A stretch of 64,000 nt of DNA, taken from positions 30,322-94,321 of the forward strand of contig JAQUOF010000001.1 in the NCBI GenBank assembly GCA_028717225.1, given 5' to 3'. Of the stretch, positions 16,040-52,215 are shown in pieces. The number at the start of each line of letters is the position of its first letter. The stretch's first letter is position 1. Source of the DNA: Patescibacteria group bacterium (GTDB lineage: Bacteria > Patescibacteriota > Patescibacteriia > UBA2591 > JAQUPP01). Made by a program: the position numbers and the translations under genes. The notes beneath the pieces were generated by a model. That model did no database searches. It was not told the origin of the DNA and saw only the letters and a list, made by a program, of their open reading frames with translations.

Positions 16040-18619
16040 TTAAACCACTAAATTAATTAATTTTCCGGCGATAAAAATTGTTTTTTTAATTTTCTGTCCG
16101 TTTAAAAATTTCTGGATTTTCGGACTGTTGAGGGCAATTTGATTTGCTTCTTCTTCGGTAATACCAACCTGGATTTTAATTGAATCTCTTATTTTGCCGT
16201 TAATTTGAACAACTAAAACAAAATCTTTTTCCTGAATTAATCGGGGATCAAATTCGGGCCATTGTTCTTGAAAAATACTCTTCTTATTATTGACGTTAAT
16301 TTTAGACCAAAGCTCGTCGCAAAGATGAGGGGTGATAGGAGACAATAATAAAAGTAAAGTTTTAATATCCAGAATATTCGGTGATTTTTCCAAAGCATTT
16401 AAATATTCCATTAAAAAAGCGACTGTAGTATTGAATTTAAAATTCTCAATATCTTCGCTTACTTTTTTTATTGTCTGATGTCTTAAACGCTCCAGATCAG
16501 GATTTGGTCCGCCAGCTGGCGGATTAGAAATTAGAAATTGAGAATTAGAAATTACAAGATTTCTGACTCTTGTCAGAAATCTTGCCACTCCTTCAATGGT
16601 TTGAGTATTCCAGGCAATTGGCTGGTCAAACGGCCCCATAAACATTTCATAAAGCCGCAAGGTGTCAGCGCCATATTTTTTAATAATTTCATCCGGATTA
16701 ATAACATTGGAAAAACTTTTACTCATTTTTCTGCCATCTTCAGCTAAAATCATTCCGTGTGATCGCCTTTTTAAATATGGCTCGTCGTTTTCCGCAATGC
16801 CGATGTCGTATAAAAATTTATACCAATAACGGGAATAAAGAAGATGCAAAGTTGTGTGTTCCATTCCGCCATTATAAATATCAACCGGCAGCCAATATTT
16901 CATTTTTTCAGGACTGGCCAAAGTTTTATCATTTTTAGAATCAAGATAACGGATAAAATACCAATTTGAACCGGCCCAATTCGGCATAGTATCGGTTTCT
17001 CTTCTTGCCCAAGCGCCGCAACGCGGACATTTTACTTTTATCCAATTCTCACATTTGCTGAGCGGCGACTCGCCGGTTCCTGATGGCTGATATTTTTTAA
17101 GATAAGGCAATTCAACCGGCAAATTTTTTTCTTCAATCGCCATCCAGCCGGGATTTAATAATTCTCCCTGATTAAATTCTTTACAATCCGCTTCTTGTTT
17201 TTTGCTTTTTATTTTGTCAGCGCATTTTTGGCAAAAAACCAATGGAATCGGTTCGCCCCAATAATGCTGGCGGGAAAAAACCCAGTCGCGCAATTTATAA
17301 TTTATTTTTAATCCGCCTGATTTTTCCAGAGTCAATCTTTCGGTGATTTTTTTTCTTGCTTCAACAGAAATTAAATTTGAAAATTCTTCAGAATTAATTA
17401 AAACCCCTTCTGATTCAAAGGCCTCTAATAATTCATTATTAGTGCCCTTTTTCGCGGCTTTATGATTTTGATCAGGTTTAATTACTTCAATAATTTCCAA
17501 TCCGTATTTTTTGGCAAAATCAAAATCTCTTTGATCATGAGCCGGAACAACCATAACCGAACCTCCGCCATAAGCGGCGATCACGTAATCGCCGAGAAAA
17601 ATCGGCACTGATTTTTTATTAATCGGATTGACAGCATAAAGTCCTTTTAATTGAACGCCTGTTTTTTCTTTTGCCAAATCGGTTCTTTCCATATCTGATT
17701 TTTCTTGAGATGCTTTAATATATTTTTCCACTTCTTCCAAATTTTTAACTTTTAATTTTAATGTCTCAATCATTTTATGTTCCGGCGCGATTACCAAGGC
17801 CGTGACGCCATAAATCGTGTCAACGCGAGTTGTAAAAACTTCAATAAATTGTTCTTCCGCTGAATCAGAATCTTTAATTAAAAATTTTAAATTCGTTCCT
17901 TCGCTCCGTCCGATCCAATTGATTTGCTGAGTTTTTATTTTTTCCAAATAATCAACTGTTTCCAATTCTTTAAGCAAGCGATCGGCATATTCGGTAATTT
18001 TAAGCATCCATTGTTTCATTTGCCGCCTTTCGGTTTGAGCGCCGCAGCGTTCGCATTTTCCTTGAACCACTTCTTCATTTGCCAAACCGATTTTGCATTT
18101 CGGACACCAATTAATCGGAATCTCTGATTGATAAGCCATGCCTCGTTTAAACAATTGGATAAAAATCCATTGGGTCCATTTATAATATTTCGGATCAGTG
18201 GTATTAATTTCTCTTGACCAATCAAAAGAAATTCCCAAAGATTTAAGTTGTTTTTTGAAAACAGCAATGTTTTGGGCCGTAATTTTCGCCGGATGAATTC
18301 CTTTTTTAATGGCGTAATTTTCGGTCGGCAGGCCAAAAGCGTCCCAACCCATGGGATAAAGGACATTTTGCCCTTGCATTCTTCTCTTTCTGGCCAAAAC
18401 ATCCAGGGCTACATAACTTCGGCAGTGACCGACATGAAGACCGTCTCCCGAAGGATAGGGAAATTCAACCAAAATATACTGTTTGGGTTTTTCCGAAGAA
18501 TCTTGGGCCTGATAAAGTTTATTTTTATCCCAAAATTTCTGCCATTTTTTTTCTATTTTGGCAAAATTATAAACTTCTTTCCTTTTGGTTAATTTTTCGA
18601 GAAAAGTTCTATTTATCAT
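16040..18619 (-). CDS. leuS: Leucyl-tRNA synthetase
   Basis: HIGH motif (HVGH), KMSKS motif, editing-domain signatures, 859 aa; carries the in-frame palindromic insertion encoding ISNSQFLISNPPAGGPNPD. Confidence 0.95.
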   Translation of the reverse strand: MINRTFLEKLTKRKEVYNFAKIEKKWQKFWDKNKLYQAQDSSEKPKQYILVEFPYPSGDGLHVGHCRSYVALDVLARKRRMQGQNVLYPMGWDAFGLPTENYAIKKGIHPAKITAQNIAVFKKQLKSLGISFDWSREINTTDPKYYKWTQWIFIQLFKRGMAYQSEIPINWCPKCKIGLANEEVVQGKCERCGAQTERRQMKQWMLKITEYADRLLKELETVDYLEKIKTQQINWIGRSEGTNLKFLIKDSDSAEEQFIEVFTTRVDTIYGVTALVIAPEHKMIETLKLKVKNLEEVEKYIKASQEKSDMERTDLAKEKTGVQLKGLYAVNPINKKSVPIFLGDYVIAAYGGGSVMVVPAHDQRDFDFAKKYGLEIIEVIKPDQNHKAAKKGTNNELLEAFESEGVLINSEEFSNLISVEARKKITERLTLEKSGGLKINYKLRDWVFSRQHYWGEPIPLVFCQKCADKIKSKKQEADCKEFNQGELLNPGWMAIEEKNLPVELPYLKKYQPSGTGESPLSKCENWIKVKCPRCGAWARRETDTMPNWAGSNWYFIRYLDSKNDKTLASPEKMKYWLPVDIYNGGMEHTTLHLLYSRYWYKFLYDIGIAENDEPYLKRRSHGMILAEDGRKMSKSFSNVINPDEIIKKYGADTLRLYEMFMGPFDQPIAWNTQTIEGVARFLTRVRNLVISNSQFLISNPPAGGPNPDLERLRHQTIKKVSEDIENFKFNTTVAFLMEYLNALEKSPNILDIKTLLLLLSPITPHLCDELWSKINVNNKKSIFQEQWPEFDPRLIQEKDFVLVVQINGKIRDSIKIQVGITEEEANQIALNSPKIQKFLNGQKIKKTIFIAGKLINLVV
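16497..16553. repeat. Palindromic element copy (core TCCGCCAGCTGGCGGA at 16508-16523) with flanking TTAGAAA heptad repeats, in-frame inside leuS
   Basis: Perfect 16-bp palindrome with GC content far above the surroundings; one of six copies in the window; translated in the leuS frame as NPPAGGP. Confidence 0.85.
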
Positions 18620-18666
18620 AAATTGATATTACTTTTATCATTTAATATTAACATAAACTTATCCTC

Positions 18667-18694
18667 TTGACAAGCGGAAAATTAGTGGTATAAT
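18667..18694 (+). promoter_or_regulatory. Consensus sigma70 promoter for the LysM/CHAP hydrolase gene
   Basis: TTGACA (18667-18672), 16-bp spacer, TATAAT (18689-18694). Confidence 0.6.
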
Positions 18695-18723
18695 AAAAAA
18701 CAACCCTGAATAAGGGCCAAATT

Positions 18724-19956
18724 ATGAAAAAACCTCTTAAAAACAATTATTTTAAGGTTTTTCTGAACAATTTACGGTCTAATGTCCAATCGGGCTTAGC
18801 CAATCTGGGAAAAGCGATTATCGGGAGAATACTTTATATCTCTCATTTTTGCCTTAGACACCGTGATAAAATAATAACGGGCGAATTTGCTTTAGTGGCT
18901 GTAATCGCCTTTTTTATTATTTTTTCATCCTTGGAAATGAAAAATCTTTATGAAAATGCCAATCATGAAAATTTAATTACTTCAATTACCAATCAAGATA
19001 AAATTATTGTTAAAGCTCAAGATACTTCTATCCCTTCTAATAATAAAGAGGATTCTGATTTTCATATTGCCGGCAATAGAATGCTGGCAGATTCTGATAT
19101 TTCTTTAACTTTGGGCGGGAGCACTTTAATCACCCCTGAAACTGAATTTAATGACTCAATGCCAAACACCAGGACAGAAGTTGAAAATTATACCGTTGAA
19201 GCAGGAGATACTATTTATACCATTGCTCAAAAATTTGGCATTAACATCACTTCCATTCTTGCGGCAAACAATTTGACGCTTCGTTCGGCCAATCTTATCA
19301 GACCCGGACAAACGCTTTCTATTTTGCCGATTGACGGTTTAACTCATAAAGTTAAATCCGGCGAGACATTGGATCAAATCGCCAAAAAATATAAAGCATC
19401 AATAAATGATATCGTGGATTTCAACGGCTTGGCCGATGCTTCTGATATTTTAGCAAATGATATTTTAATTATTCCTTATGGATCACAACCTTCCGCGCCT
19501 CCGGTGATAATCAAACCTCAGGTTGTTCAACCTCGTTTTGAAAAAACAGAATTAGTGATAACTTCACCGAATTACAATTCTTGGTTGAGAAATACAAAAT
19601 GCCACAAATTTTATAATGGCCAGTGTACTTCTTATGTAGCTTATAAATGGGCGACTGATCTCGGCAAATGCGTTGCTTGGAGCGGTAATGCCAAAAACTG
19701 GCTCGGTAATGCCAAACAACAAGGATTCAGAATTGGCGATGATCCGCAAAAAGGAGCCGTTGTTTCTTTATGTGAAGCCGGCCGCGGTTGCTGCGGAAGA
19801 AGTTCCTATTGTTGGGGACACGTCGCTTATGTTGAATCTTTTAATAATGACACTATTACTTTTACTGAAATGAATCATCCCACGCCATGGCGCGTTACTC
19901 AAAGAACAATTGATCGCGACGATGTACGTATTTTAGGTTACATTTACGCGGAATAA
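18724..19956 (+). CDS. Membrane-anchored peptidoglycan hydrolase: two LysM domains plus C-terminal CHAP amidase/peptidase domain
   Basis: LysM motifs (YTVEAGDTIYTIAQKFGI...; HKVKSGETLDQIAKKY...); CHAP signature (GQCTSYVAY...GHVAYVE) with catalytic Cys/His; N-terminal TM. Confidence 0.8.
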   Translation: MKKPLKNNYFKVFLNNLRSNVQSGLANLGKAIIGRILYISHFCLRHRDKIITGEFALVAVIAFFIIFSSLEMKNLYENANHENLITSITNQDKIIVKAQDTSIPSNNKEDSDFHIAGNRMLADSDISLTLGGSTLITPETEFNDSMPNTRTEVENYTVEAGDTIYTIAQKFGINITSILAANNLTLRSANLIRPGQTLSILPIDGLTHKVKSGETLDQIAKKYKASINDIVDFNGLADASDILANDILIIPYGSQPSAPPVIIKPQVVQPRFEKTELVITSPNYNSWLRNTKCHKFYNGQCTSYVAYKWATDLGKCVAWSGNAKNWLGNAKQQGFRIGDDPQKGAVVSLCEAGRGCCGRSSYCWGHVAYVESFNNDTITFTEMNHPTPWRVTQRTIDRDDVRILGYIYAE

Positions 19957-19989
19957 AAAATATATTTTTAAAAATTAAATTATAATCAT

Positions 19990-21810
19990 ATGAATATTAT
20001 AGAGGGTCAATATCCTTCACAAGAAGCGGAAGAAGAAGCTTCCCGCATGAAACAAAAAATTAAATCCGGTGAGGCCAAGTCATATCAGGAAGCAGATGAA
20101 CTAATTAAGAGTGAAAATCTTGCAAAAATAGAATCAGAAACTAAAAAATTAATTCAATCTAAAACATCCTATCCTATAGTAGAAAAAACTATAGATAAAA
20201 TTTCATCCGTAAAACAGAAAGTTGATTCTGGCGAAGTTCCTTTATATACTGGAGCAGAAAAATTAATTAATATTGAAAATATTAAAACAGAAACCCAAAA
20301 AGAAGCCTCTAAAAATACAGCAGAAATTTCAAATCCAGACAATAGTGGTGCAGGAGAATTAATTAAAGATGAAGGTCAGAAGACAGAAATTCCAAAGACA
20401 GAAATTCCCGGAGAAAAAAATTTATATTCTAAGGAAGAGGCTCTGGATAAAGCCTCCCGCATGAAACAAAAAGTTGATTCTGGTAAGGCCGCTGATTATA
20501 ACAGCGCACAAACAATGGTTGCTGTTGAAGATTATTGGGCAAAAAACCCGGAAGAGACTTCTAAAAAGACAGCTGCGATTTTGAGTCCAGACAATCGAAA
20601 AAAATTCAATGAAATGTCTGAGAAAGGAAAAGATATTGCCAATCAATTTTTTAAAGGACTTTATAGAATTTCCGGTATAGATAAAATAGTAGATAAACTT
20701 AAAATTACCCATAAACAATCTCAATCGGATCGTTATGAGAAAAAAGCTGTTGAATTTAAAATTCAAGCAGACGCTCTTAAGTTAGAAATTGAAGAGCTGA
20801 ATCAATCCAAAAAACCATTTGACGCTGCTATTGAAAATTTAAAAAAACAGAATCTTCCCGGATCTGAATTATTAGAATTAAAATTAAAAGATTTAGATCG
20901 TCAAACAAATTATTTATTAAATGAAAAAGATAAAATTCAAACAAAATTTGAAGCAAATGAAAGTAAAATGAAATTGTATACGAAGGAAAGGAATAAAATC
21001 GTGGGGAAATTTATTGAACGTTATGATGAAAAACTTGAACCAATGGAAAAAGAACTAGAAAATCTTCAAAAATGCGAGAAAAGAATAGATCTTGATGCCG
21101 CTATAATGGAAGAGAAACAAGCAAAACAAACAGCAGAATTCGACAATAAAGAAAAACAAAAAAAACAGATAGAGGATACTTTACGAGCAACCGGAATGTC
21201 CGAGAAAGAAATTCAAGTATTTCCAGCTATAGAAATACTTAATCAGGGTTTAAGTCAAGGTTATGAAAAGATAAAAATAGAAAAAGAAAATCTGGCTCAA
21301 AAAAAGATGGAAATAGAAAAGAAAATCGCAAAAATTGACGCGCAAGCCAATCCATATAGAGACAAACGCGATGAATTTGCGCGCATAACAGAAGACATAC
21401 CGTTGGAGATGGAGATGGAAAAAAGAAAAAGAGTGGAAGAATTTAAAGGTAAAGAAAAAATAATAGCACATACCAGACAAGAAAATTCAGAAATTATAAA
21501 TGTCGCCGACAGAAAACCGGTCAAAGAAATTAAAGCGGAAGAAACAGAAAAAAACAAAGAAGAATTTGAAGTTTCTTCTTATATTACTGGTTGGAACGCA
21601 TACCTTAAAGAAAAATACAATGAAAATGCTTCTACAGAGCTGATAAATTTAGAAAACTTTTTAAACACAACTGGGTTTCCAAAAGATTATAAATTGGATT
21701 TCTCTTTCTTCAAAAACATCCTCTTAAAATATTGTACATTTCAAGATATACCGACTGATAAATTGAATCAAAATATTGATAAATTTTTTGAAGATAAAAT
21801 AAAAATATAG
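19990..21810 (+). CDS. Lys/Glu-rich coiled-coil protein with internal repeats (hypothetical)
   Basis: 606 aa, highly charged, repeated ASRMKQK[IV][KD]SG[EK]A segments; no enzymatic motifs. Confidence 0.5.
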   Translation: MNIIEGQYPSQEAEEEASRMKQKIKSGEAKSYQEADELIKSENLAKIESETKKLIQSKTSYPIVEKTIDKISSVKQKVDSGEVPLYTGAEKLINIENIKTETQKEASKNTAEISNPDNSGAGELIKDEGQKTEIPKTEIPGEKNLYSKEEALDKASRMKQKVDSGKAADYNSAQTMVAVEDYWAKNPEETSKKTAAILSPDNRKKFNEMSEKGKDIANQFFKGLYRISGIDKIVDKLKITHKQSQSDRYEKKAVEFKIQADALKLEIEELNQSKKPFDAAIENLKKQNLPGSELLELKLKDLDRQTNYLLNEKDKIQTKFEANESKMKLYTKERNKIVGKFIERYDEKLEPMEKELENLQKCEKRIDLDAAIMEEKQAKQTAEFDNKEKQKKQIEDTLRATGMSEKEIQVFPAIEILNQGLSQGYEKIKIEKENLAQKKMEIEKKIAKIDAQANPYRDKRDEFARITEDIPLEMEMEKRKRVEEFKGKEKIIAHTRQENSEIINVADRKPVKEIKAEETEKNKEEFEVSSYITGWNAYLKEKYNENASTELINLENFLNTTGFPKDYKLDFSFFKNILLKYCTFQDIPTDKLNQNIDKFFEDKIKI

Positions 21811-21840
21811 AAATAATAAATTTAATTTTTATAAATTATT

Positions 21841-22116
21841 ATGACAATAAATCAAAATAAAATAAACGATCAAATTATCCAAAACGCGAGCAACCAGCTT
21901 AATGATTTATCAGATAAAGTGAATAAGATTAATTTAGAAATAGATAAAACAAATAAGGAAGCAAATGAAAAAATTAATAATCTTGATATGGAGATTGATA
22001 AATCTATTAATAATATAAAACAAATCTGCTCTGATTTGGATCAAATTGAAAAAGATGCCGGCGATGAACTGGATAAGCTTGCATTGCAACAAGCGGAAGA
22101 CTTGGCCAGCGAATAA
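21841..22116 (+). CDS. Small coiled-coil protein (hypothetical)
   Basis: 91 aa with heptad-like pattern; followed directly by a strong terminator. Confidence 0.4.
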   Translation: MTINQNKINDQIIQNASNQLNDLSDKVNKINLEIDKTNKEANEKINNLDMEIDKSINNIKQICSDLDQIEKDAGDELDKLALQQAEDLASE

Positions 22117-30262: not shown

Positions 30263-31000
30263 ATGAACAAAACTCTAAAAGAACAACTAACTAAATTCGG
30301 CCTGGCGGAAAAAGAATCGGCTGTTTATTTGGCTGTTCTTGAACTTGGCGCCGGCACGCCCATGGAAATCAGCAAAAAAAGCGGAATCAAACGACCGACC
30401 ACTTATTTAATTTTGGATTTATTGGCCGAAAAAGGATTAGTCACCCGCTCGCTCAAAGAACGAACTCAAGTTTTTATCGCCCAACCGCCAAAAAAAATTT
30501 TGAATTCTTTAAACGAGCAAGTTTTGGATTTTCAAAGCTTACTGCCCCAATTAATGGCTATTCATAATTTGGAAAAACAAAAACCGAAAATTATGATTTT
30601 TGAAGGCGAAGACGCGCCTGATCGGGCTTATCAAGATATTTTGGAATATCAGGGCGAAGTGTCATTTATGGGCATTACCAGCGAAGTTTACAAAAAATTT
30701 CCCAAAACAATGGAGCCCTTTGAAGAAAAAATAAAAAATAAAAATTTCTCAGTCAGAGAAATTTTAGTTGACGAGCCGATTGCCAAAGATTATACTGAAA
30801 GAAATCAAGGACCGTTTCACCAAATTCGTTTTTTGCCGAAAAATTTAAAACCGGTTGGCAGCGATTTCTGCATTTATGGCGATAAAATTTTGCTTACTTC
30901 CTTGCAAGACGAAATTTTTATCGTTTCCATTGAAGATAAAAAAATTGCTAATTTTGTCAAAATTTTATTTGATTTAACCTGGCAAAGTTTAAAAAAATAA
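30263..31000 (+). CDS. TrmB-family transcriptional regulator
   Basis: N-terminal winged HTH (AVYLAVLELGAGTPMEISKKSGIKRPTTYLILDLLAEKGLV) plus C-terminal TrmB-like effector domain; paralog of the gene at 52264..53013. Confidence 0.75.
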   Translation: MNKTLKEQLTKFGLAEKESAVYLAVLELGAGTPMEISKKSGIKRPTTYLILDLLAEKGLVTRSLKERTQVFIAQPPKKILNSLNEQVLDFQSLLPQLMAIHNLEKQKPKIMIFEGEDAPDRAYQDILEYQGEVSFMGITSEVYKKFPKTMEPFEEKIKNKNFSVREILVDEPIAKDYTERNQGPFHQIRFLPKNLKPVGSDFCIYGDKILLTSLQDEIFIVSIEDKKIANFVKILFDLTWQSLKK

Positions 31001-31015
31001 ATAGGGGCCTATAAC

Positions 31016-31034
31016 TTGTCCCGCCTGTAATAGG
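31016..31034. other. GC-rich hairpin CCCGCCTGTAATAGGCGGG upstream of tRNA-Ala
   Basis: 7-bp GC stem with 5-nt loop; related to the CCCGCC...GCGGGA hairpin at 31463-31480. Confidence 0.5.
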
Positions 31035-31060
31035 CGGGATGAACTTGCCCCGCCACTTTT

Positions 31061-31131
31061 GGGCCCGTAGGTAAGTGGTATACCGGTACATTCGCATTGT
31101 ACAGTCCCGAGTTCGATTCTCGGCGGGTCCA
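31061..31131 (+). tRNA. tRNA-Ala (anticodon CGC) with G3:U70, embedded in an 11-bp flanking inverted repeat
   Basis: Acceptor GGGCCCG/CGGGTCC (G3:U70 Ala identity pair), anticodon stem GTACA/TGTAC, loop TTCGCAT, T-arm CCGAG-TTCGATT-CTCGG; flanked by CCCCGCCACTT (31048-31058) and AAGTGGCGGGG (31134-31144). Confidence 0.8.
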
Positions 31132-31189
31132 TAAGTGGCGGGGTGAAGTAATACGCAATATTTTGTCCCGATTTTGTTAAAATTCAAAA

Positions 31190-31438
31190 ATGTTTAACAT
31201 TTATATTTTAAAATCATTGAAATTTGGTAAATACTATATTGGCAGTTGTGAAGATATCACAACGAGATTAAAACAGCATAACACTGGAAAGACAAAATCA
31301 ACAAAAAGATTTATGCCATGGGAGCTTGTTTATAAAGAAAGCTTTAATACTCGAAGTGAAGCTGTAAAAAGAGAGCAACAATTAAAATCATGGAAAAGTA
31401 GAAAGGCCTTAGAAAAATTAATAAAGGAATATTTTTAA
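31190..31438 (+). CDS. Stand-alone GIY-YIG nuclease-domain protein
   Basis: GKYYIGSCED...R..QHN...E..LK motifs of the GIY-YIG fold; 82 aa with no additional DNA-binding domain. Confidence 0.75.
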   Translation: MFNIYILKSLKFGKYYIGSCEDITTRLKQHNTGKTKSTKRFMPWELVYKESFNTRSEAVKREQQLKSWKSRKALEKLIKEYF

Positions 31439-31448
31439 GACGACAGTT

Positions 31449-31543
31449 CTCCCGATTTTGTTCCCGCCTTTAGCGGGATTACAAAATCGAGGATCCACGA
31501 TATCACCCTAAATTATAAATTTGAGTGATATCGGGAGATTCTG
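31449..31543 (+). ncRNA. Candidate structured RNA element: two adjacent stem-loops with nested inverted repeats between the GIY-YIG and MazG-like genes
   Basis: SL1: CGATTTTGT-[TCCCGC-CTTTA-GCGGGA]-T-ACAAAATCG; SL2: CGATATCAC-19 nt loop-GTGATATCG; outer CTCCCGAT/ATCGGGAG pairing; neither has a canonical U-tract. Confidence 0.3.
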
Positions 31544-42370: not shown

Positions 42371-42418
42371 ATAATAATAAAAAGTTATTTTATTAAAAAT
42401 AATAACCAATTTTAAAAC

Positions 42419-42442
42419 AAATTGTTCCACGTGGAACAATTT
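42419..42442. promoter_or_regulatory. Perfect 24-bp palindrome AAATTGTTCCACGTGGAACAATTT (core shared with 43261-43292) just upstream of the radical-SAM SPL-like gene
   Basis: Perfect dyad with a CACGTG centre; lies 16 bp before the likely ATG at 42458. Confidence 0.6.
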
Positions 42443-43260: not shown

Positions 43261-43292
43261 AACTTAATTGTTCCACGTGGAACAATTAAGTT
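43261..43292. repeat. Perfect 32-bp palindrome AACTTAATTGTTCCACGTGGAACAATTAAGTT immediately after the SPL-like gene
   Basis: Shares the 22-bp core AATTGTTCCACGTGGAACAATT with the site at 42419-42442; the two copies bracket the gene. Confidence 0.6.
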
Positions 43293-43397
43293 AATAATTT
43301 CTAAAAATAATCTTATATCTAATAAACAAAAGCTCTTTATGTGTCGTAAAACAGAAAAGACCAGCCCTATTTAGAGTTGGTCTTTTGATTTCTTTTT

Positions 43398-43645: not shown

Positions 43646-43770
43646 GTCAACCCCCACACCAAACTTAGCGTTTGATTTACGTATCGCAAAAATCAGAAGG
43701 CGAAGCCGCTTCGCTTTTATCCCCTTATAAAAAAAGCCTCGCATTGAGTTGTGGTGTGGGGGTCAACCCC
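43646..43770. mobile_element. MITE-like composite inverted-repeat element (GTCAACCCCCACACC ... GGTGTGGGGGTCAACCCC) carrying an outward promoter; paralog of 61814..61963
   Basis: Terminal inverted repeats CCCCCACACC/GGTGTGGGGG with GTCAACCCC at both ends; internal GC hairpin GCGAAGC-C-GCTTCGC; sits in a divergent intergenic region. Confidence 0.45.
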
Positions 43771-43784
43771 TTTTATTTTTATTC

Positions 43785-43812
43785 TTGACAAAACCGCAAA
43801 ATTTGTTATTCT
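43785..43812 (+). promoter_or_regulatory. Sigma70-like promoter for the PQQ-repeat protein gene
   Basis: TTGACA (43785-43790), 16-bp spacer, TATTCT; lies inside the over-extended tracked ORF, supporting the downstream start. Confidence 0.5.
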
Positions 43813-43842
43813 GGTAAATAGTTATTTAAAAAATTCGCCTGC

Positions 43843-43858
43843 TCCGCCAGCTGGCGGA
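43843..43858. repeat. Palindromic element copy (TCCGCCAGCTGGCGGA) in the 5' UTR of the PQQ-repeat gene
   Basis: Same 16-mer as the other five copies; located between the promoter and the SD (AAAGGAGG) of the ATG at 43916. Confidence 0.8.
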
Positions 43859-43915
43859 TACGGCGTGACAAATCCGCCTAAGCTCAAGAAGCTACGGCGT
43901 AATAAAGGAGGAAGA

Positions 43916-45358
43916 ATGTTGAATACAGTGAAATCCGCCTTTGGCGGAAAAAATAAATTTTTTGGTTTAGTTCTGGTTGCTTGGAGTTCTTTAATTTATG
44001 CGACGAATTGGCCAATGTTCCAAGGTGATGCGAAACATACCGGCCGTTCTGATGTGATCGCAGCACAAACAAACAATCTGCTCTGGAAAATAAATTTAGG
44101 AGTAGAATGTTCTCCTCTAAGCAGCCCGATTATTGGCTCGCTTAGCGGTCAAGAAAGAATCCTTTTGGGTACAGAAAGCGGCATTTATATTGTTGATTTA
44201 AAAGGAAATTTGGTCGGATTAATTGATTCTGGCTATTCCATTAAAACTACGATTGCGGCTTTAAATGATTTTATCTATTTTGGAGCAAAAGATTCTTTTA
44301 TTGTTTGGAATGCGGATAGCACAAAATGCCGGTCATATTATTTGGGAAACGGAAGCAATATTTCACATCCAACTCTTTTTAACGGCAAAATTTATGTCCA
44401 TGCCACCAACAAACTTTGGTGCTTTAATGACAGCGCTTTGGAATGGACATCTAATGATTTGGATAATGGCAACAGCCCTTCTTCAGCCATTGCCGTGGAT
44501 GACAGCGGTAATATTTATGCCGCCACCTTGAGCAATACTCTGGCCTGGTATGATTTTCGTCTTTATGCTTTTAATCCTAATGGAACGCAGAAGTGGGTGT
44601 ATGAGGGTTTTAGTTTTGAACCGGGTGGCATTTGTATGACTCCGACTGTCGGACCATCAAACGAAATTTTCGTCGCTACTCTTTGTGATGCCGGCTGGCC
44701 TTCGAGTCTTTATTCAATAAAAAATGGCTCAAAACGTTGGCAGCAAGGGGCAAACATCTATTACTTATCTCCGGCAATTTTCCAAGACAAAATTGTCTAT
44801 GGCAGCAAAGAAGGATTAAATGCGCGATTGATTTCTAACGGCAATTCTCTTTGGCAATATCCGACTGCGAGCCCGATTACCATTTCTTCTCCGGCTATTG
44901 GTGCTGATGGAACAATCTATATTGGCACTGACGGCGGGATTGTTTTGGCAGTCAGTAAAGACGGAACTCTGAAATGGCAAAATGACACTCAAGAAGGACA
45001 ACTATGTTCTCCTGCCATCGGTGATGATAGCACGGTTTATATTAATTCTTCTACTGGAAAACTTTTCGCCTACCGCCAACCATTCGGAATTGAAGAAAAA
45101 AATGAAACGGAAAAAGAAATTTTTAAAGCCATACCAAACCCATTAAACCTGGAAACGGAAATTCGCACTTCTGATAATACAATTCTTTTAATCTATGGAC
45201 TTAACGGTCAATTGATTAGAACCTTGTCTGATTTTCAGTTCTGCCAAACTTATTATAAAACTTCTTGGAATGGCCGAGATAATCAAGGAAAACTAGTTGC
45301 TTCCGGAATTTATTTTTGTCAGCAAAACGGTAGATTAAAACTGACCGTTATCAGATAA
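43916..45358 (+). CDS. Secreted PQQ-like beta-propeller repeat protein with C-terminal T9SS-type sorting-domain-like module
   Basis: Signal peptide MLNTVKSAFGGKNKFFGLVLVAWSSLIYA then WPMFQGDAKHTGRS (PQQ-repeat family N-terminal motif); C-terminus IPNPLN...LLIYGLNGQLIRTL...SWNGRDNQGKLVASGIYFCQQNGRLKLTVIR parallels the 4979..5866 tail; start trimmed from the tracked 43751. Confidence 0.7.
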   Translation: MLNTVKSAFGGKNKFFGLVLVAWSSLIYATNWPMFQGDAKHTGRSDVIAAQTNNLLWKINLGVECSPLSSPIIGSLSGQERILLGTESGIYIVDLKGNLVGLIDSGYSIKTTIAALNDFIYFGAKDSFIVWNADSTKCRSYYLGNGSNISHPTLFNGKIYVHATNKLWCFNDSALEWTSNDLDNGNSPSSAIAVDDSGNIYAATLSNTLAWYDFRLYAFNPNGTQKWVYEGFSFEPGGICMTPTVGPSNEIFVATLCDAGWPSSLYSIKNGSKRWQQGANIYYLSPAIFQDKIVYGSKEGLNARLISNGNSLWQYPTASPITISSPAIGADGTIYIGTDGGIVLAVSKDGTLKWQNDTQEGQLCSPAIGDDSTVYINSSTGKLFAYRQPFGIEEKNETEKEIFKAIPNPLNLETEIRTSDNTILLIYGLNGQLIRTLSDFQFCQTYYKTSWNGRDNQGKLVASGIYFCQQNGRLKLTVIR

Positions 45359-45364
45359 ATAAAA

Positions 45365-45400
45365 CCCTCTGCTATAAAAAGCAGAGGGTCGTTTTTTTTA
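45365..45400 (+). terminator. Intrinsic terminator
   Basis: CCCTCTGC-TATAAAAA-GCAGAGGG hairpin plus T-run after the stop at 45358. Confidence 0.7.
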
Positions 45401-45422
45401 TAAAAATTATATTGTTTAATGG

Positions 45423-45998
45423 CTAACAGGCCAAATAAACAACTTTTATTTTTTCTGATTTTATATGGAAATTTTTAATCAAATCTTTTTTTGATTTTTC
45501 CGAATCTGTAATGATTTTTTCCGCGCGCCGCAAGGCATTTTTCAAAATTAAAATAAAAAATCCGTGTTTGAAGGAATATATAAACTTTGCCAAAGAATTT
45601 TTATGTTGAGTCGGGTATTGCAGTAAGGTCAAATCATGAATCGTCACCACAAACCGGCCGAAGTAAAACAGGGGAACATTAAAGTGAAGAAAGTGAACCA
45701 AATCAAGGCGTTGAGAGGCGAGTTGCTTGGGAAATAGAACCTGCTCTTGCCAGGAATACCAGGGGTAATCGGCTAAAACCTTGTGAAAATGAGGGTTTTG
45801 GGGCTGATATAGATTAAAGCCTTCTTGTCGGAGGAAAATAAAATAATCGTCTTTTTGATTAGACTTTTCCAAATTAGCAATTAATTCCTGAGTGTAGCGC
45901 CCAATTCCTTTGCCTGTTGGGCCAAAAAATCTGGCGTCTATTCCAATTTTCATAAAGTTTTGTAAATTTCTTCTGTTTCTTGGGCGCATTTTTCCCAA
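45423..45998 (-). pseudogene. Truncated GT4 glycosyltransferase paralog (N-terminal Rossmann half only), tandem partial duplicate of the adjacent full-length gene
   Basis: 191 aa, >90% identical to residues ~10-115 of the 45950..47080 product, then diverges and stops where the full-length gene has its inter-domain linker; overlaps the upstream gene by 49 bp. Confidence 0.45.
45625..45957. repeat. ~333-bp direct repeat (copy 1) of the GT4 N-domain coding region; copy 2 at 46725..47057
   Basis: Near-identical stretches, e.g. CACCACAAACCGGCCGAAGTAAAACAGGGGAACATTAAAGTGAAGAAAGTGAACC in both copies, offset 1100 bp. Confidence 0.75.
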
Positions 45999-47080
45999 GA
46001 ATATTTTTTAATTTGTTCGCTGCCTTTCTGAATTAATTCTTCGCGAAGATTTTTGCTTTCTATAATTTGGTTCATAGTCGCAGCCATTTCTTCTATGTTT
46101 TTAGGATTAAAATATAAAGCGGCTGAACCGTAAATTTCAGGCAGGGGTTGATGTTTTGAGGCAATTACCGGCAAACCGAATTTCATTGCTTCCAAACCGG
46201 GCAGGCCAAAACCCTCAGACAGAGAAGGGAATACATAAGCCAAACCATTTTTATAAAGCCAGGCTAATTTTTCATCAGAAGCCTGACCGGGGAAAATAAC
46301 TTTTTCTTCCAATCCTAATTCTTGGGTTAATTTTTTTAAATTGTGATAGAAATAATCCATTTTCCCGACCAAAATTAAATGAATTTCCGGGTGTTTGGAT
46401 AAAACAATTTTAAAAGCCTTGATTAAACGTTCTAAATTTTTGTGTGGATAAGCATTACCGACGTACAATAAATAGGAATTTGGTCCGCCAGCTGGCGGAT
46501 TGGAATTTGGAATTTCCACTGACGCAAGCGCCGCTTCATAAGTTACAGAGATTTTTTTCGGATTAATTTTGTATTGTTTCACAATTGAGTCTTTTATAAA
46601 GTTAGAAACCGTAATAATTTTTTCCGCCCGGTATAAAGCATTCTTAATAATCAAGTAATAAATAATTTTTTTGAAATAAAAAGTTAATTTACCGTGGGTT
46701 GAAGCTTTTGGTGTTGTTTGATTATGAGTCAAATCATGAATTGTCACCACAAACCGGCCGAAGTAAAACAGGGGAACATTAAAGTGAAGAAAGTGAACCA
46801 AATCAAGGCGTTGAGAGGCGAGTTGCTTGGGAAATAAAACCTGCTCTTGCCAGGAATACCAAGGATAATCGGCTAAAACCTTGTGAAAATGAGGGTTTTG
46901 AGGCTGATATAAATCAAAGTTATCCTTACGGAGGAAAATAAAATAATCGTCTTTTTGATTAGACTTTTCCAAGTTAGCAATTAGTTCCTGAGTGTAGCGC
47001 CCGATTCCTTTGCCTGTTGGGCCAAAAAATCTGGAGTCTATTCCAATTCTCATATTATTATAAAATTTAGGGGTTGACAA
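45950..47080 (-). CDS. GT4-family (GT-B fold) glycosyltransferase
   Basis: C-terminal EGFGLPGLEAMKFGLPVIAS (GT4 E-x7-E region); 376 aa; in-frame palindromic insertion encoding EIPNSNPPAGGPNS in the inter-domain linker. Confidence 0.85.
   Translation of the reverse strand: MSTPKFYNNMRIGIDSRFFGPTGKGIGRYTQELIANLEKSNQKDDYFIFLRKDNFDLYQPQNPHFHKVLADYPWYSWQEQVLFPKQLASQRLDLVHFLHFNVPLFYFGRFVVTIHDLTHNQTTPKASTHGKLTFYFKKIIYYLIIKNALYRAEKIITVSNFIKDSIVKQYKINPKKISVTYEAALASVEIPNSNPPAGGPNSYLLYVGNAYPHKNLERLIKAFKIVLSKHPEIHLILVGKMDYFYHNLKKLTQELGLEEKVIFPGQASDEKLAWLYKNGLAYVFPSLSEGFGLPGLEAMKFGLPVIASKHQPLPEIYGSAALYFNPKNIEEMAATMNQIIESKNLREELIQKGSEQIKKYSWEKCAQETEEIYKTL
46475..46515. repeat. Palindromic element copy (core 46484-46499) with GGAATTTGG direct repeats, in-frame inside the GT4 gene
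   Basis: GGAATTTGG-TCCGCCAGCTGGCGGA-TTGGAATTTGGAATTT; an identical arrangement occurs at 47894-47934. Confidence 0.85.
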
Positions 47081-47461: not shown

Positions 47462-47462
47462 T

Positions 47463-48701
47463 TTATTTTTTGCCAAGAGAAAAGATAAAAATTTCACGCC
47501 AAACTTCTTGATTGGCTCGGGCGTAAATAATTGATTGCCGCTTGGTCGATTTAATAATCGGGTAACTTGCCACAGAATCGGGCAAAATGTTAACTGTCTG
47601 CCAACCCATTTTATCAATCTCCGGCAAAATAAATTCGGAGAAAATTCCGTTATTTTGTTTTAAGTCCTGATAAATCGGGAAAATCATCACCACTTGCCCA
47701 TTTGGTTTTAAAATTTTTTGAAATTCTTTAAAAGCGCCAATGTATAAATCTGACAATTTAGACATTATGATCAGCAGTTGAGCCTTTAAGCTGGAAATTT
47801 TGGTTGGACCCAAATATGGCTCGGCAACAATTAAATCAATTGATTGAGGATCTATTTTTTTAGAAATTTCTTTAACATCAGTCTGGAAGATTTGGAATTT
47901 GGTCCGCCAGCTGGCGGATTGGAATTTGGAATTTTTTATGAGCCAGTCTAAATTTTGTTGAGTGTCTTTAATCGCCTCTGGGTTTAAATCGGCGCCAATA
48001 ATATTTTTATAACCCATCAAGGCCGCTTCTTGTAAAATTGTGCCCGCACCGCAAAAAGGGTCTAAAATCACTGCTTTTTTATCTAACTCGCCTGCCAAAT
48101 TAATCATAATTTTAGCCAATTTCGGCGGTAAAATTCCCTGTTCCATTGACCGATTTGGCCGGCCGAAATCACGAAAGCCGTATTCTTTAAAATCCTGACA
48201 AGTCAAAGTTCTGCCGAACAAAAACCCGTTTTTCTCGGCAAAAAATACAAATTCCGCGCCGGTTTCCAAAAGCTTGTTTGTTTGAACAATAACCGAAGAA
48301 AGCGCATCTTCGCGAGAAGTAACCCAGCGGGAAGAAATTCCTTTTTCTTTAAGATCTTTTTTTAAATTCAAAGCCAAATTTTTAATTAAATTTACGATTT
48401 GAGAGATTGAGGCCTGATGGTCTAAACGATAAACACTGAATCCGAATCTGACCTTGGCTGATTTTTCGGAAAACAAATCAGCCAGATTTTTTAAATCCTG
48501 GTTTGGCAAAATTTTGCCGATTTTAATCGTTCCGCCCAACCTGTTTTGCAAATACGCGAAATCAATTTCTTTATTTCCGGGTAAATCTATGATTAAAACT
48601 TCTTCTGATATTTTTTTAATCTCAAACGGGCCTGTGAGTATCTTTAAGATTTCAGCTATTGACAAAGTTGGATTATTGCCTAATATAAGAAAATATGTCA
48701 T
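47463..48701 (-). CDS. THUMP/UPF0020-type RNA (guanine-N2) methyltransferase (Trm11/RlmL-like)
   Basis: DPFCGAGT SAM motif I, IGADLNPEA, EPYLGP (motif IV variant); palindromic element inserted in-frame, encoding NSKFQSASWRTKFQIFQ between motifs III and IV. Confidence 0.7.
   Translation of the reverse strand: MTYFLILGNNPTLSIAEILKILTGPFEIKKISEEVLIIDLPGNKEIDFAYLQNRLGGTIKIGKILPNQDLKNLADLFSEKSAKVRFGFSVYRLDHQASISQIVNLIKNLALNLKKDLKEKGISSRWVTSREDALSSVIVQTNKLLETGAEFVFFAEKNGFLFGRTLTCQDFKEYGFRDFGRPNRSMEQGILPPKLAKIMINLAGELDKKAVILDPFCGAGTILQEAALMGYKNIIGADLNPEAIKDTQQNLDWLIKNSKFQSASWRTKFQIFQTDVKEISKKIDPQSIDLIVAEPYLGPTKISSLKAQLLIIMSKLSDLYIGAFKEFQKILKPNGQVVMIFPIYQDLKQNNGIFSEFILPEIDKMGWQTVNILPDSVASYPIIKSTKRQSIIYARANQEVWREIFIFSLGKK
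47894..47934. repeat. Palindromic element copy (core 47903-47918) inside the RNA methyltransferase gene, read in a different frame (SASWRT) from the leuS/GT4 copies (PPAGGP)
   Basis: GGAATTTGG-TCCGCCAGCTGGCGGA-TTGGAATTTGGAATTT. Confidence 0.85.
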
Positions 48702-49938: not shown

Positions 49939-49945
49939 AATTATT

Positions 49946-51857: not shown

Positions 51858-51958
51858 TATAAACGATTATAGACCCCTTAAAATTGTTAATTTAGCAGTA
51901 ATTTGGCTTATTCTCCTCTTTAATTTTTATTTTTGATTTTTCAATTTTAAATTTTTTC

Positions 51959-52009
51959 GCCCCCTTAGCTCAATGGTAAATCCGCCAGCTGGCGGACTCT
52001 TAAGCAATC
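51959..52009 (+). pseudogene. tRNA-Lys-like remnant: 5' acceptor/D region plus anticodon loop, with the palindrome TCCGCCAGCTGGCGGA (51981-51996) replacing the D-stem/anticodon 5' stem
   Basis: GCCCCCTTAGCTCAATGGTA matches the first 20 nt of tRNA-Lys at 52064 (1 mismatch); ...CTCTTAAGCAAT matches its anticodon loop and 3' stem; no T-arm or acceptor 3' strand. Confidence 0.45.
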
Positions 52010-52063
52010 AATTATTATAATAAAATTAGATTTCTTTAAAAACTTAATTAGCAAATAATATAA

Positions 52064-52134
52064 GCCCCCATAGCTCAATGGTAGAGCAGTTGCCTCTTAA
52101 GCAATTGATATAGGTTCGATCCCTATTGGGGGTA
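52064..52134 (+). tRNA. tRNA-Lys (anticodon CTT)
   Basis: Acceptor GCCCCCA/TGGGGGT, D-arm GCTC-AATGGTA-GAGC, anticodon stem GTTGC/GCAAT, loop CTCTTAA, T-arm ATAGG-TTCGATC-CCTAT. Confidence 0.8.
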
Positions 52135-52140
52135 TTTTAT

Positions 52141-52215
52141 ACCTTAATTTAATGGTAAATCCGCCAGCTGGCGGACTCTTAAGCAATTGACGAAGGTCTG
52201 ATTCCTTCGGGGGTA
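52141..52215 (+). pseudogene. Second tRNA-Lys-like remnant carrying the palindrome (52160-52175) with a divergent T-arm-like hairpin
   Basis: Shares the 37-nt block AATGGTAAATCCGCCAGCTGGCGGACTCTTAAGCAAT with 51969-52005; the acceptor and anticodon stems cannot pair. Confidence 0.4.

What the first reader, a model, noticed from the sequence alone, without database searches (positions are those of the whole stretch)
16497..52215. A 16-bp perfect palindrome (TCCGCCAGCTGGCGGA) dispersed six times, including in-frame insertions in leuS, a glycosyltransferase and an RNA methyltransferase
The exact 16-mer occurs at 16508, 43843, 46484, 47903, 51981 and 52160. A given 16-mer is expected about 1e-5 times in 64 kb, and this one is GC-rich in AT-rich DNA, so chance is excluded.

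Three copies lie inside intact ORFs and keep the frame. In leuS (ISNSQFLISNPPAGGPNPD) and the GT4 gene (EIPNSNPPAGGPNS) the palindrome is read as PPAGG. In the Trm11-like methyltransferase the same DNA is read in another frame as SASWRT. Selection therefore appears to act on the DNA/RNA element rather than on a peptide module.

In all three the insertion falls in a variable loop or linker, and it is flanked by short A/T heptad repeats (GGAATTTGG...TTGGAATTTGGAATTT, or TTAGAAATTAGAAATT). A fourth copy is in a 5' UTR, and two sit inside decayed tRNA copies.

This behaviour is reminiscent of Rickettsia palindromic elements (RPE-like in-frame selfish insertions) but at much smaller size. Alternatives are a recognition site for a site-specific recombinase or nuclease, or a structured RNA hairpin module.
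Basis: seen in the sequence. Interest (0 to 1): 0.78.

Follow-up and report, generated by a model that had tools for sequence, protein, structure and literature searches.

The report
Tiny mobile palindrome in ultra-small bacteria
A 16-base GC-rich palindrome is scattered through this Patescibacteria (CPR) genome, including inside essential genes, and occurs base-for-base in many other uncultured bacteria, where it always accompanies a small GIY-YIG nuclease gene lodged in tRNA genes, so it looks like a very small mobile DNA element with a candidate partner enzyme.

Summary
TCCGCCAGCTGGCGGA occurs six times in 64 kb (0 expected). Three copies lie in frame in leuS, a GT4 glycosyltransferase and a methyltransferase. 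One lies in a 5' leader and two in dead tRNA-Lys copies.

It is a DNA-level dispersed repeat, not a peptide module. All three frames are open, and 60 coding copies elsewhere use all three. A 97-99% identical relative has only heptad repeats at the methyltransferase site. Other relatives show further gain, loss and variant alleles.

The identical 16-mer, filtered for AT-rich flanks, hit at least 120 genome blocks (under 5 expected). Most are Patescibacteria; some are labelled Bacteroidota or Cloacimonadota. Typical settings are 7-8-nt AT-rich tandem repeats, hairpin tips and tRNA pseudogenes. Compensatory variants keep the hairpin.

New finding: eight of eight homologues of one small GIY-YIG nuclease, fetched without regard to the palindrome, carry it or a compensatory or loop variant in a pseudo-tRNA beside the gene. 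The window's tRNA-Lys locus is such a cassette with the nuclease gene deleted.

Best reading: a minimal non-autonomous palindromic element, probably the cis site of GIY-YIG/tRNA cassettes. The mechanism is inferred. No description was found in the literature.

The parts
16508..16523 (.). Palindrome copy 1, in frame in leuS (read as PPAGG on the minus strand).
   Evidence: The same copy is present in relatives L056/L057. The syntenic L192 has the same heptad array at this loop but no palindrome.
16523..16554 (.). Heptad array ATTAGAA x4.6 abutting copy 1. It encodes ISNSQFLISN on the minus strand.
   Evidence: The array is nearly identical in L192, whose LeuS is only 63% identical.
43843..43858 (.). 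Palindrome copy 2, in the 5' leader of a beta-propeller gene, inside a longer imperfect palindrome CGCC...GGCG.
   Evidence: No Rfam family matches. The whole segment 43656-45422 is absent from relative L180.
43934..43948 (.). Same-stem variant hairpin TCCGCC-TTT-GGCGGA, in the N-terminal coding region (read as SAFGG).
46475..46515 (.). Composite GGAATTTGG + palindrome copy 3 (46484-46499) + TTGGAATTTGGAATTT, in frame in the GT4 inter-domain linker.
   Evidence: At this site L179 has the 1-mismatch variant TCAGCCAGCTGGCGGA with inverted flanks, and L180 has an unrelated 20-mer.
47889..47934 (.). Heptad array + palindrome copy 4 (47903-47918), in frame in the methyltransferase (read as SASWRT).
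   Evidence: L178, 97-99% identical, has AAATTCC x5 and no palindrome. L180 has neither heptads nor palindrome.
51959..52008 (+). Pseudo-tRNA-Lys 'A': positions 1-23, then palindrome copy 5 (51981-51996), then the anticodon loop and 3' stem strand. There is no T arm.
   Evidence: The same architecture occurs in L065, L106, L176, L181, L183 and L189.
52064..52134 (+). Intact tRNA-Lys(CTT), enclosed by the two palindrome-bearing pseudo-copies.
52142..52215 (+). Pseudo-tRNA-Lys 'B': a degraded 5' part, palindrome copy 6 (52160-52175), then the anticodon loop, T arm and acceptor 3' strand. In L183, L191 and L176 a GIY-YIG ORF or its remnant lies between the intact tRNA and this copy. Here only 7 nt remain.
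31190..31438 (+). An 82-aa GIY-YIG nuclease gene of another clade. It lies next to tRNA-Ala (31060-31132) and is surrounded by other GC-rich palindromes (31019-31040, 31050-31060/31134-31144, 31462-31478). It is listed as the only intact candidate enzyme of this type in the window, and the link is inferred.

Best explanation
TCCGCCAGCTGGCGGA ('pal') is a minimal, non-autonomous mobile palindromic repeat. It works as DNA, not as a peptide.

Shown:
- It is dispersed and far above chance.
- Its presence differs between near-identical strains.
- It occurs in all three reading frames, all of them stop-free.
- It occurs nested within itself and in tandem arrays.
- It keeps its hairpin through compensatory changes.
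- It is found base-for-base across the Patescibacteria radiation and in some Bacteroidota and Cloacimonadota MAGs.
- It lands in three settings: 7-8-nt AT-rich tandem repeats (where it replaces about 3-10 nt and makes no target duplication), the tips of existing hairpins, and one fixed place in tRNA-Lys/Arg/Asn pseudo-copies.
- In every sampled member of one clade of ~85-aa GIY-YIG nuclease genes, pal or a compensatory or loop variant lies in a pseudo-tRNA. It is either 10-28 nt upstream of the start codon or at both ends of a [tRNA + nuclease gene] unit.

Inferred:
- Pal is the cis-acting terminal hairpin of these GIY-YIG/tRNA cassettes. Solo copies are spread in trans, as with REP and its RAYT transposase or a MITE and its transposase. 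This would be by nuclease-induced breaks repaired from other copies, or by short-homology gene conversion.
- Horizontal transfer of the cassette explains the identical core in distant lineages.
- Coding copies survive only where they are harmless: loops and linkers, a length that keeps the frame, and preferably the flexible PPAGG frame.
- The window's tRNA-Lys locus is a decayed cassette with the nuclease gene deleted.
For: Non-chance and exact.

The expectation is 0.5-6 for 596 Gb.
- 71 blocks carry Patescibacteria-lineage labels spanning Microgenomates, Parcubacteria and Saccharibacteria.
- 9 blocks are labelled 'Gammaproteobacteria'. One was tested and is Roizmanbacteria-like, with 87% TypA identity.
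- 20 blocks are labelled Bacteroidota and 5 Cloacimonadota, several from multi-copy MAGs.

Polymorphism:
- Methyltransferase site: empty in L178, which is 97-99% identical.
- GT4 site: three alleles.
- leuS: an extra variant, TCCGCCGGTGGGCGGA, in L056 only.
- leuS loop in L192: the heptad array without pal.

DNA rather than peptide: frame usage is 39/11/10. Coding occupancy is 39%, against 65% for random positions.

Hairpin constraint:
- Variants TCCGTCAGCTGACGGA and TTCGCCAGCTGGCGAA keep the pairing, and changes are frequent in the loop.
- The RNA hairpin folds at -10.2 kcal/mol.

Nesting and arrays: L190 has pal inside pal. L100 has four tandem 22-nt units inside a 702-aa ORF.

Cassette:
- L106 reads [pseudo-tRNA 1-23, pal, anticodon loop][GIY-YIG ORF][intact tRNA].
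- Homologues chosen only by protein similarity and contig length were L181, L183, L185, L186, L187, L189, L190 and L191. All 8 with DNA show pal or a compensatory or loop variant in a pseudo-tRNA-Lys/Asn next to the ORF.
- A Ser-tRNA GIY-YIG cassette (L114) is bounded by perfect 40-bp inverted repeats made of other GC-rich palindromes. It sits inside a split pseudo-tRNA-Ser.

Horizontal transfer: a published HGT survey predicts GIY-YIG genes as donated from Patescibacteria to other bacteria (PMC12455944).
Against: - No enzyme activity or transposition intermediate is shown. The GIY-YIG link is an association seen at tRNA loci only.
- About 95% of pal copies in the 120 blocks have no GIY-YIG gene nearby. 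No gene family recurs next to them.
- The window holds no intact Lys/Asn-clade nuclease gene, yet the methyltransferase copy looks recent. It could equally be a loss in L178.
- An 85-aa catalytic-domain-only protein has no obvious way to read a 16-bp sequence.
- The genome scan was filtered for AT-rich flanks and truncated. Flank statistics and taxon proportions are therefore biased.
- The Bacteroidota and Cloacimonadota labels were not independently checked, and a few singletons may be chance.
- The strand asymmetry of the flanks (T-rich on both sides; on the antisense strand in 51 of 60 coding copies) is not explained by this model.
Confidence: 0.6

Rival explanations
1. Pal is a functional hairpin selected at each site. 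As RNA it would terminate or destabilise antisense transcripts inside genes, or stabilise or insulate messages. It would spread because it is useful rather than selfish.
For: On the strand antisense to the methyltransferase gene, the T/G-rich heptads pair through G-U wobble into a long hairpin (-25.6 kcal/mol, z -4.5) followed by U6. The sense strand forms only the 6-bp hairpin. The T-rich flank is on the antisense strand in 51 of 60 coding copies. Many intergenic copies elsewhere are followed by T runs or crown longer hairpins. Compensatory variants keep the pairing.
Against: The terminator scan flags none of the window copies. The T-run enrichment is partly imposed by the search pattern. A-rich coding strands in AT-rich genomes would give the same strand bias. 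Function does not explain one identical 16-mer in distant lineages, the tandem arrays inside ORFs, nesting, or the fixed position in dead tRNA copies.
Confidence: 0.15
2. Pal is the binding site of a conserved sequence-specific DNA-binding protein (a parS- or Noc-like chromosome-organising site, an operator, or a recombinase or restriction-modification target containing CAGCTG). It would be kept exact by that protein.
For: It is a perfect 16-bp dyad, like parS. It is identical across phyla. There are no decayed copies in the window. Compensatory symmetric variants suggest recognition by a dimer. Density is about one per 10 kb.
Against: Binding sites normally arise by point mutation within existing sequence. 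Pal appears as an insertion or replacement inside tandem repeats, in 22-nt tandem arrays, nested in itself and in pseudogenes. Variable loops with a conserved stem point to a hairpin rather than duplex read-out. No candidate protein or CAGCTG methylase-nuclease pair was found among the ten window ORFs scanned.
Confidence: 0.1
3. Pal spreads with no dedicated enzyme. Replication slippage, template switching and short-homology gene conversion between AT-rich tandem repeats would move it within a genome. Uptake of foreign DNA by these naturally competent cells would move it between genomes. The GIY-YIG cassettes would merely be places where it is tolerated.
For: The 41-nt identity, including heptad flanks, between the GT4 and methyltransferase copies. 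Heptad arrays vary between close relatives and recur in several genes. Flanks are sometimes converted into inverted repeats, as in L179 and L091. No target duplication is seen.
Against: Within one MAG (MAG021) the flanks differ from copy to copy, so shared flank homology is not general. Eight of eight cassettes carry pal at a fixed position, which is too regular for passive tolerance. Other GIY-YIG clades have their own palindromes as terminal repeats.
Confidence: 0.15

Closest known systems
Rickettsia palindromic elements (RPE)
   Same: Selfish palindromic repeats that insert in frame into conserved protein genes at surface loops in an AT-rich, reduced genome.
   Different: RPEs are about 100-150 bp, restricted to Rickettsia, and add a sizeable peptide. 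Pal is 16 nt, is read in any frame, adds 0-2 codons net here, and is shared across phyla. No sequence relationship was tested.
REP/REPIN elements with RAYT transposases
   Same: Short GC-rich hairpin repeats dispersed in trans, with the cognate enzyme gene itself flanked by the repeats. Different enzyme clades have different hairpins. Here the Lys/Asn clade goes with pal and the Ser clade with other palindromes (concept in PMC3116915).
   Different: REPs are extragenic and served by a Y1 (IS200-like) transposase. Here 39% of copies are inside ORFs, the candidate enzyme is an ~85-aa GIY-YIG nuclease, the cassettes carry a tRNA and sit in a pseudo-copy of that tRNA, and no RAYT was seen.
Cyanobacterial small dispersed repeats (SDR4-6; Elhai et al. 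2008, Genome Res 18:1484)
   Same: Very small (21-27 nt) repeat modules that appear mobile, insert precisely into other short repeats (SDR5 inside HIP1, as quoted in PMC4390886) and lack a known enzyme. The genomes are also rich in tandem heptamers. The original paper was not readable here, so the further details are from memory.
   Different: The sequence, phylum and tRNA/GIY-YIG association differ. Pal is a perfect palindrome and even shorter.
Mobile G+C clusters of yeast mitochondrial DNA and GC-rich palindromes flanking Neurospora mitochondrial tRNA genes
   Same: GC-rich palindromes scattered in very AT-rich DNA. They occur singly and in tandem arrays, occasionally in frame in a coding gene, and near tRNA genes. 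This is from established knowledge and was not tested here.
   Different: These are organellar, longer (about 18-60 nt) and family-specific. No nuclease cassette is known to carry them.
Free-standing GIY-YIG homing endonuclease genes in tRNA clusters (phage T4 SegB)
   Same: A GIY-YIG nuclease gene lodged among tRNA genes. SegB cleaves a tRNA-gene region and drives inheritance of its own locus (PMC2330249).
   Different: SegB has a DNA-binding extension. No pseudo-tRNA duplication or terminal palindromes are known to me for SegB; this was not checked in the paper. The CPR proteins are catalytic-domain-only, and their activity is untested.

Membership tests
Rickettsia palindromic elements | Length about 100-150 bp with recognisable RPE family sequence | tested here: not met
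   The conserved unit is 16 nt. The flanks differ from copy to copy and between genomes.
Rickettsia palindromic elements | In-frame insertion into conserved ORFs at tolerated loops | tested here: met
   leuS, GT4 and methyltransferase copies. 60 of 152 copies elsewhere lie in long open frames.
REP/REPIN-RAYT | Extragenic location | tested here: not met
   39% of copies lie within stop-free stretches of at least 150 aa.
REP/REPIN-RAYT | Cognate Y1 (RAYT) transposase gene flanked by the repeats | tested here: not met
   No recurrent neighbouring gene family in the 120 loci. The gene that is flanked is GIY-YIG, PF01541. RAYT was not searched for genome-wide.
MITE (miniature inverted-repeat transposable element) | Terminal inverted repeats plus a target-site duplication of fixed length | tested here: not met
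   Empty versus filled sites show replacement of 3-10 nt and no duplication. As a perfect palindrome, pal can be read as two abutting 8-bp inverted ends.
Small dispersed mobile repeats (SDR-like) | Unit under 30 nt, dispersed, presence/absence between relatives, nested in other repeats, no target duplication | tested here: met
Intrinsic transcription terminator | GC-rich hairpin followed by a U tract at a gene end | tested here: not met
   None of the window copies is flagged. Three are inside ORFs. Some copies in other genomes do fit.
Functional tRNA (the two tRNA-like copies) | Cloverleaf recognised by ARAGORN or Rfam RF00005 | tested here: not met
   Only 52064-52134 scores. The flanking copies give nothing even at E<=1. 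The D-stem 3' strand and the anticodon-stem 5' strand are replaced by pal.
GIY-YIG/tRNA cassette (as defined here from related loci) | Pseudo-tRNA carrying pal, intact copy of the same tRNA, and a GIY-YIG ORF between or beside them | tested here: inconclusive
   The window has both pal-bearing pseudo-tRNAs and the intact tRNA in the same order as L183, L191 and L176, but the ORF is missing, with 7 nt left.
Homing endonuclease system | Nuclease cleaves the cassette-free allele and is copied in by repair | not testable with these tools
   This needs enzyme assays or crosses. Only the architecture is available.

The most novel reading that the evidence does not exclude
Pal and its sister GC-rich palindromes are the terminal cis sites of an undescribed class of mobile cassettes. 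Each cassette holds a catalytic-domain-only GIY-YIG nuclease plus a replacement tRNA, and it disables the resident tRNA copy.

The nuclease would also scatter the bare 16-nt hairpin in trans through the genome. That would rewrite surface loops of essential proteins across the Patescibacteria and leak into other phyla. It would be a REP/RAYT-like partnership built on a different enzyme, and the smallest mobile unit known in bacteria.
Probability: 0.3. Interest if true: 0.85.

Novelty: new variant of a known kind. Interest (0 to 1): 0.7.

Why it matters
Patescibacteria have tiny, streamlined genomes and few classical transposons. Even so, essential genes such as leuS carry a foreign 16-nt hairpin. 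If the element is mobile and nuclease-driven, four things follow.

1. It is a so far unnoticed source of protein-loop variation and strain-level polymorphism in a very large, uncultured part of the bacterial tree.
2. It gives a testable role for the many small GIY-YIG genes that sit beside tRNAs in these genomes.
3. It provides a ready sequence marker (pal with AT-rich flanks) for tracking horizontal exchange between CPR bacteria and their neighbours.
4. It warns annotators that PPAGG, SASWR and RQLA peptides, heptad-coded loops and pseudo-tRNAs in CPR MAGs are repeat-derived.

Tried and rejected
- **Chance or composition.** Rejected.
- **Assembly or adapter artefact.** Rejected. The same copy occurs in independent samples and assemblers, including contigs of 0.6-0.8 Mb. 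It stays in frame and is conserved between relatives.
- **Peptide module.** Rejected by frame usage.
- **Known RNA family or riboswitch at the 5' leader copy, or tRNA status for the pseudo-copies.** Nothing found in Rfam.
- **Neighbouring cognate gene.** All-against-all clustering of ORFs in the 120 loci found only housekeeping families: GTPases, glycosyltransferases and ABC transporters. GIY-YIG appeared in 4 loci.
- **An apparent EF-G association.** This was only paralogy among GTPases.
- **Phage carriage.** The 55 viral contigs with pal are mostly high-GC coding chance hits (IRQLAD). A few low-GC ones have pal at hairpin tips, and none has the cassette.
- **Simple homologous transfer between identical heptad arrays.** Not general, because flanks differ within one MAG.
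- **Flank logo for a target site.** Only a weak TTT(G/A)|pal|TT(G/A) pattern, T-rich on both sides and partly imposed by the search filter.
- **'Gammaproteobacteria' hosts.** The one locus tested was mislabelled and is a CPR bacterium.
- **Literature.** The 16-mer and its 14-mer core appear in no held paper. Searches for Patescibacteria with palindromic repeats, or with GIY-YIG, found no description. Elhai 2008 could not be read.

Full report
**1. The observation**

The 16-mer TCCGCCAGCTGGCGGA ('pal') occurs exactly six times, at 16508, 43843, 46484, 47903, 51981 and 52160. None appeared in 100 shuffles, and the window holds no 1-3-mismatch relatives. The window is about 35% GC. By LeuS similarity it comes from a Parcubacteria-type member of the Patescibacteria/CPR.

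Three copies lie in frame in minus-strand genes:
- leuS: NPPAGG
- a GT4 glycosyltransferase: NPPAGG, in the linker between its two Pfam domains
- a UPF0020/RMKL-type methyltransferase: SASWRT

The leuS site is a hypervariable loop across 60 Patescibacteria LeuS proteins.

One copy lies between a promoter-like site and the start of a beta-propeller gene. No Rfam family matches there.

Two copies sit in tRNA-Lys-like sequences on either side of the intact tRNA-Lys(CTT). Neither ARAGORN nor Rfam accepts them as tRNA.

All three reading frames of pal are open, and because it is a palindrome the same holds on both strands. As RNA it is a 6-bp hairpin with a 4-nt loop, at -10.2 kcal/mol.

**2. A dispersed DNA element that changes between close relatives**

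Relatives were fetched through LeuS and through the methyltransferase.

- **Methyltransferase site.** L178 is 97-99% identical to the window. It has five clean AAATTCC heptads where the window has AAATTCCAA-pal-CCAAATTCC, so 10 nt are replaced by 16. L180, about 92% identical, has neither heptads nor pal.
- **GT4 site.** There are three alleles. The window has pal between direct heptads. L179 has a 1-mismatch pal (TCAGCC...) between inverted flanks. L180 has an unrelated 20-mer of the same length.
- **leuS.** L056 and L057 share the window's copy. They also carry a second hairpin with the same stem and another loop (TCCGCC-GGTG-GGCGGA), replacing TAAAG.
- **A distant syntenic genome.** L192 has only 63% LeuS identity. 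It carries almost the same heptad array at the same loop, followed directly by ACAAATCC, and has no pal in 22.5 kb. The window reads array|pal|CCAAATCC.

The heptad arrays are therefore a separate, variable feature. Another example is the TACGAAT expansion in the ksgA-like gene. Pal is inserted into these arrays with a small deletion and no target duplication. The net change in protein length is small or nil, so the 'insertion' is really a rewriting of a loop.

**3. Distribution**

Between 0.5 and 6 hits are expected.

By record title:
- 71 blocks are from Patescibacteria lineages covering Microgenomates, Parcubacteria and Saccharibacteria.
- 9 are labelled 'uncultured Gammaproteobacteria'. 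The one tested has a TypA 87% identical to Roizmanbacteria, so that label is wrong.
- 20 are labelled Bacteroidota and 5 Cloacimonadota. Several MAGs hold 2-6 copies.
- The rest are singletons, some of them probably chance.

Flank settings:
- 7-8-nt T/G-rich tandem repeats on both sides in the same orientation (TTGATTTT, TTGGAATT, TTAGAAAT and others)
- pal at the tip of a longer inverted repeat
- tRNA pseudo-copies

Across the 955 kb of fetched loci plus the window, covering about 160 copies in all:
- Variants are few and favour the loop.
- Some variants are compensatory (TCCGTCAGCTGACGGA, TTCGCCAGCTGGCGAA), which points to a constraint on the hairpin or dyad.
- L100 has four tandem 22-nt pal units inside a 702-aa ORF.
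- L190 has pal nested in pal.
- 60 of 152 copies lie in long open frames, against 65% for random positions. The frames are PPAGG 39, SASWR 11 and RQLA 10.

Insertion is therefore frame-blind, and purifying selection then filters the outcomes.

**4. The tRNA copies and a candidate partner enzyme**

In six unrelated loci from the scan, a pseudo-copy of the neighbouring tRNA-Lys(TTT/CTT) or tRNA-Arg(TCT) has the same 8 nt replaced by pal. Those 8 nt are the end of the D stem, position 26 and the 5' strand of the anticodon stem.

In L106 the order is [tRNA 1-23, pal, anticodon loop], then an 82-84-aa GIY-YIG ORF starting 13 nt later, then the intact tRNA overlapping the stop codon. L065 and L176 hold decayed remnants of that ORF.

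I then searched for homologues of this ORF and fetched DNA for nine of them. One had no DNA available.

All eight with DNA show the architecture:
- **Type 1** (L181, L185, L186, L187, L189, L190): pseudo-tRNA-pal, ORF, intact tRNA. Pal ends 10-28 nt before the ATG.
- **Type 2** (L183, L191, and L176 among the scan loci): pseudo-tRNA-pal, intact tRNA, ORF, then a full-length pseudo-tRNA with pal.

Hosts include Gottesmanbacteria and Zambryskibacteria. The tRNAs are Lys or Asn. L183, L186 and L187 use the compensatory variant.

The window's locus (A, 55 nt, tRNA-Lys, 7 nt, B) is type 2 with the ORF deleted. L179 and L180 share this arrangement. L097 breaks synteny exactly at the end of B.

Other GIY-YIG clades behave alike but use other palindromes. 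In L114 a [GIY-YIG ORF + tRNA-Ser] unit is bounded by perfect 40-bp inverted repeats made of two GC-rich palindromes. It sits between the 5' and 3' parts of a dead tRNA-Ser. The window's own GIY-YIG gene (31190-31438, PF01541) lies beside tRNA-Ala among further GC-rich palindromes.

**5. Interpretation**

Shown: pal is a very small dispersed repeat that is gained or lost on short time-scales. It is constrained as a hairpin or dyad, is shared base-for-base across a huge radiation, and is an invariable component of one clade of GIY-YIG/tRNA cassettes.

Inferred: pal is the cis site or terminal repeat of those cassettes and is scattered in trans, in the manner of REP with RAYT or of MITEs. Horizontal transfer of the cassette would account for the identical core. 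A published survey predicts GIY-YIG genes as donated by Patescibacteria to other bacteria (PMC12455944).

How a bare 16-mer is copied into heptad arrays is not known. The small target deletions and the absence of duplications fit break repair or short-homology conversion better than classical transposition.

Rivals:
- A functional hairpin. An antisense terminator is suggested by the G-U-extended fold of the antisense strand and by a 51/60 strand bias.
- A protein-binding dyad.
- Enzyme-free spread by slippage and conversion.

Each explains part of the data. None explains the fixed place in dead tRNAs together with nesting, tandem arrays and cross-lineage identity.

**6. Comparison and novelty**

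In behaviour pal resembles RPEs, REP/REPIN, cyanobacterial SDRs (PMC4390886 quoting Elhai 2008; PMC3116915) and mitochondrial GC clusters. It fails defining features of RPE (size), REP-RAYT (extragenic location, Y1 enzyme) and MITEs (target duplication).

T4 SegB shows that GIY-YIG nucleases can live in and act on tRNA gene clusters (PMC2330249).

Neither the sequence nor the cassette was found in the searchable literature. I therefore rate it a new variant of a known kind, with a testable and more novel reading.

Noticed in passing
window 42408-42441 and 43266-43299: Two copies of the perfect 22-bp palindrome AATTGTTCCACGTGGAACAATT flank a radical-SAM gene next to a ParA/Mrp-type ATPase gene. 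Its core, TGTTCCACGTGGAACA, equals the canonical parS consensus (from my own knowledge), so these may be centromere-like sites.
   Followed up: partly
window 45628-45927 versus 46728-47027: A 300-nt direct duplication at 95% identity. The N-terminal GT4 domain is present twice: once in the full gene and once in a truncated 191-aa paralogue at 45423-45998.
   Followed up: partly
window about 19974-22111: A segment absent from the syntenic relative L056. It holds a 606-aa and a 91-aa ORF with no Pfam match, about 30% GC and strong A-over-T skew, and looks like a recent insertion.
   Followed up: partly
window about 43656-45422: The beta-propeller (PQQ/BamB-like) gene with its pal-bearing leader is absent from relative L180.
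   Followed up: partly
window 30990-31480: tRNA-Ala(CGC) is enclosed by an 11-bp inverted repeat (CCCCGCCACTT / AAGTGGCGGGG). It is preceded by a tRNA-like mini-helix containing the hairpin TCCCGCC-TGTAATA-GGCGGGA. It is followed by a GIY-YIG gene and the hairpin TCCCGCCTTTAGCGGGA.
   Followed up: partly
window 15389-15430 (in the ksgA-like gene 15179-16039); L056 12659-13486: Heptad repeats (TACGAAT) expand a loop of the rRNA dimethyltransferase by 21 nt relative to L056. L056 in turn has an ATTCCAG/ATTCTAA heptad patch (IPDSKFQ) in another loop. Heptad-coded loops recur in several conserved genes and differ between close relatives.
   Followed up: partly
window 16525-16554 versus L192 about 11970-12060: The leuS heptad array AATTTCTAATTC(T/C)CAATTTCTAATTTCTAA is almost identical in DNA between genomes whose LeuS proteins are only 63% identical. 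This is unexplained by simple descent.
   Followed up: no
L056 about 12350-12412 (leuS 3' part): A 63-nt in-frame low-complexity insert built from ACACGGA- and ATAAGTC-like short repeats (TNTEATRTGTEGQHKSVLSRHKS) is absent from the window.
   Followed up: no
L060, L098, L115, L079 and others: Other GC-rich palindromes recur across lineages, for example CCTGCCTGCCGGCAGGCAGG and the family (A)TTCCCGC-loop-GCGGGAA(T). One CCTGCC copy is inserted cleanly into the T loop of a pseudo-tRNA-Arg in L098.
   Followed up: partly
L114 (reverse strand) 7406-7874: A [GIY-YIG ORF + tRNA-Ser] unit is bounded by perfect 40-bp inverted repeats and inserted within a split pseudo-tRNA-Ser. The right end is repeated in tandem.
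   Followed up: partly
L086 (CAYNFC010000007.1) and other TPA_asm records: A MAG labelled 'uncultured Gammaproteobacteria' encodes a TypA 87% identical to Candidatus Roizmanbacteria proteins. These public taxon labels appear to be wrong.
   Followed up: partly
window 5915-14338: A giant 2807-aa ORF, conserved and syntenic in L056 and L192 (products of 2886-2926 aa with faint CBM_4_9 hits).
   Followed up: no
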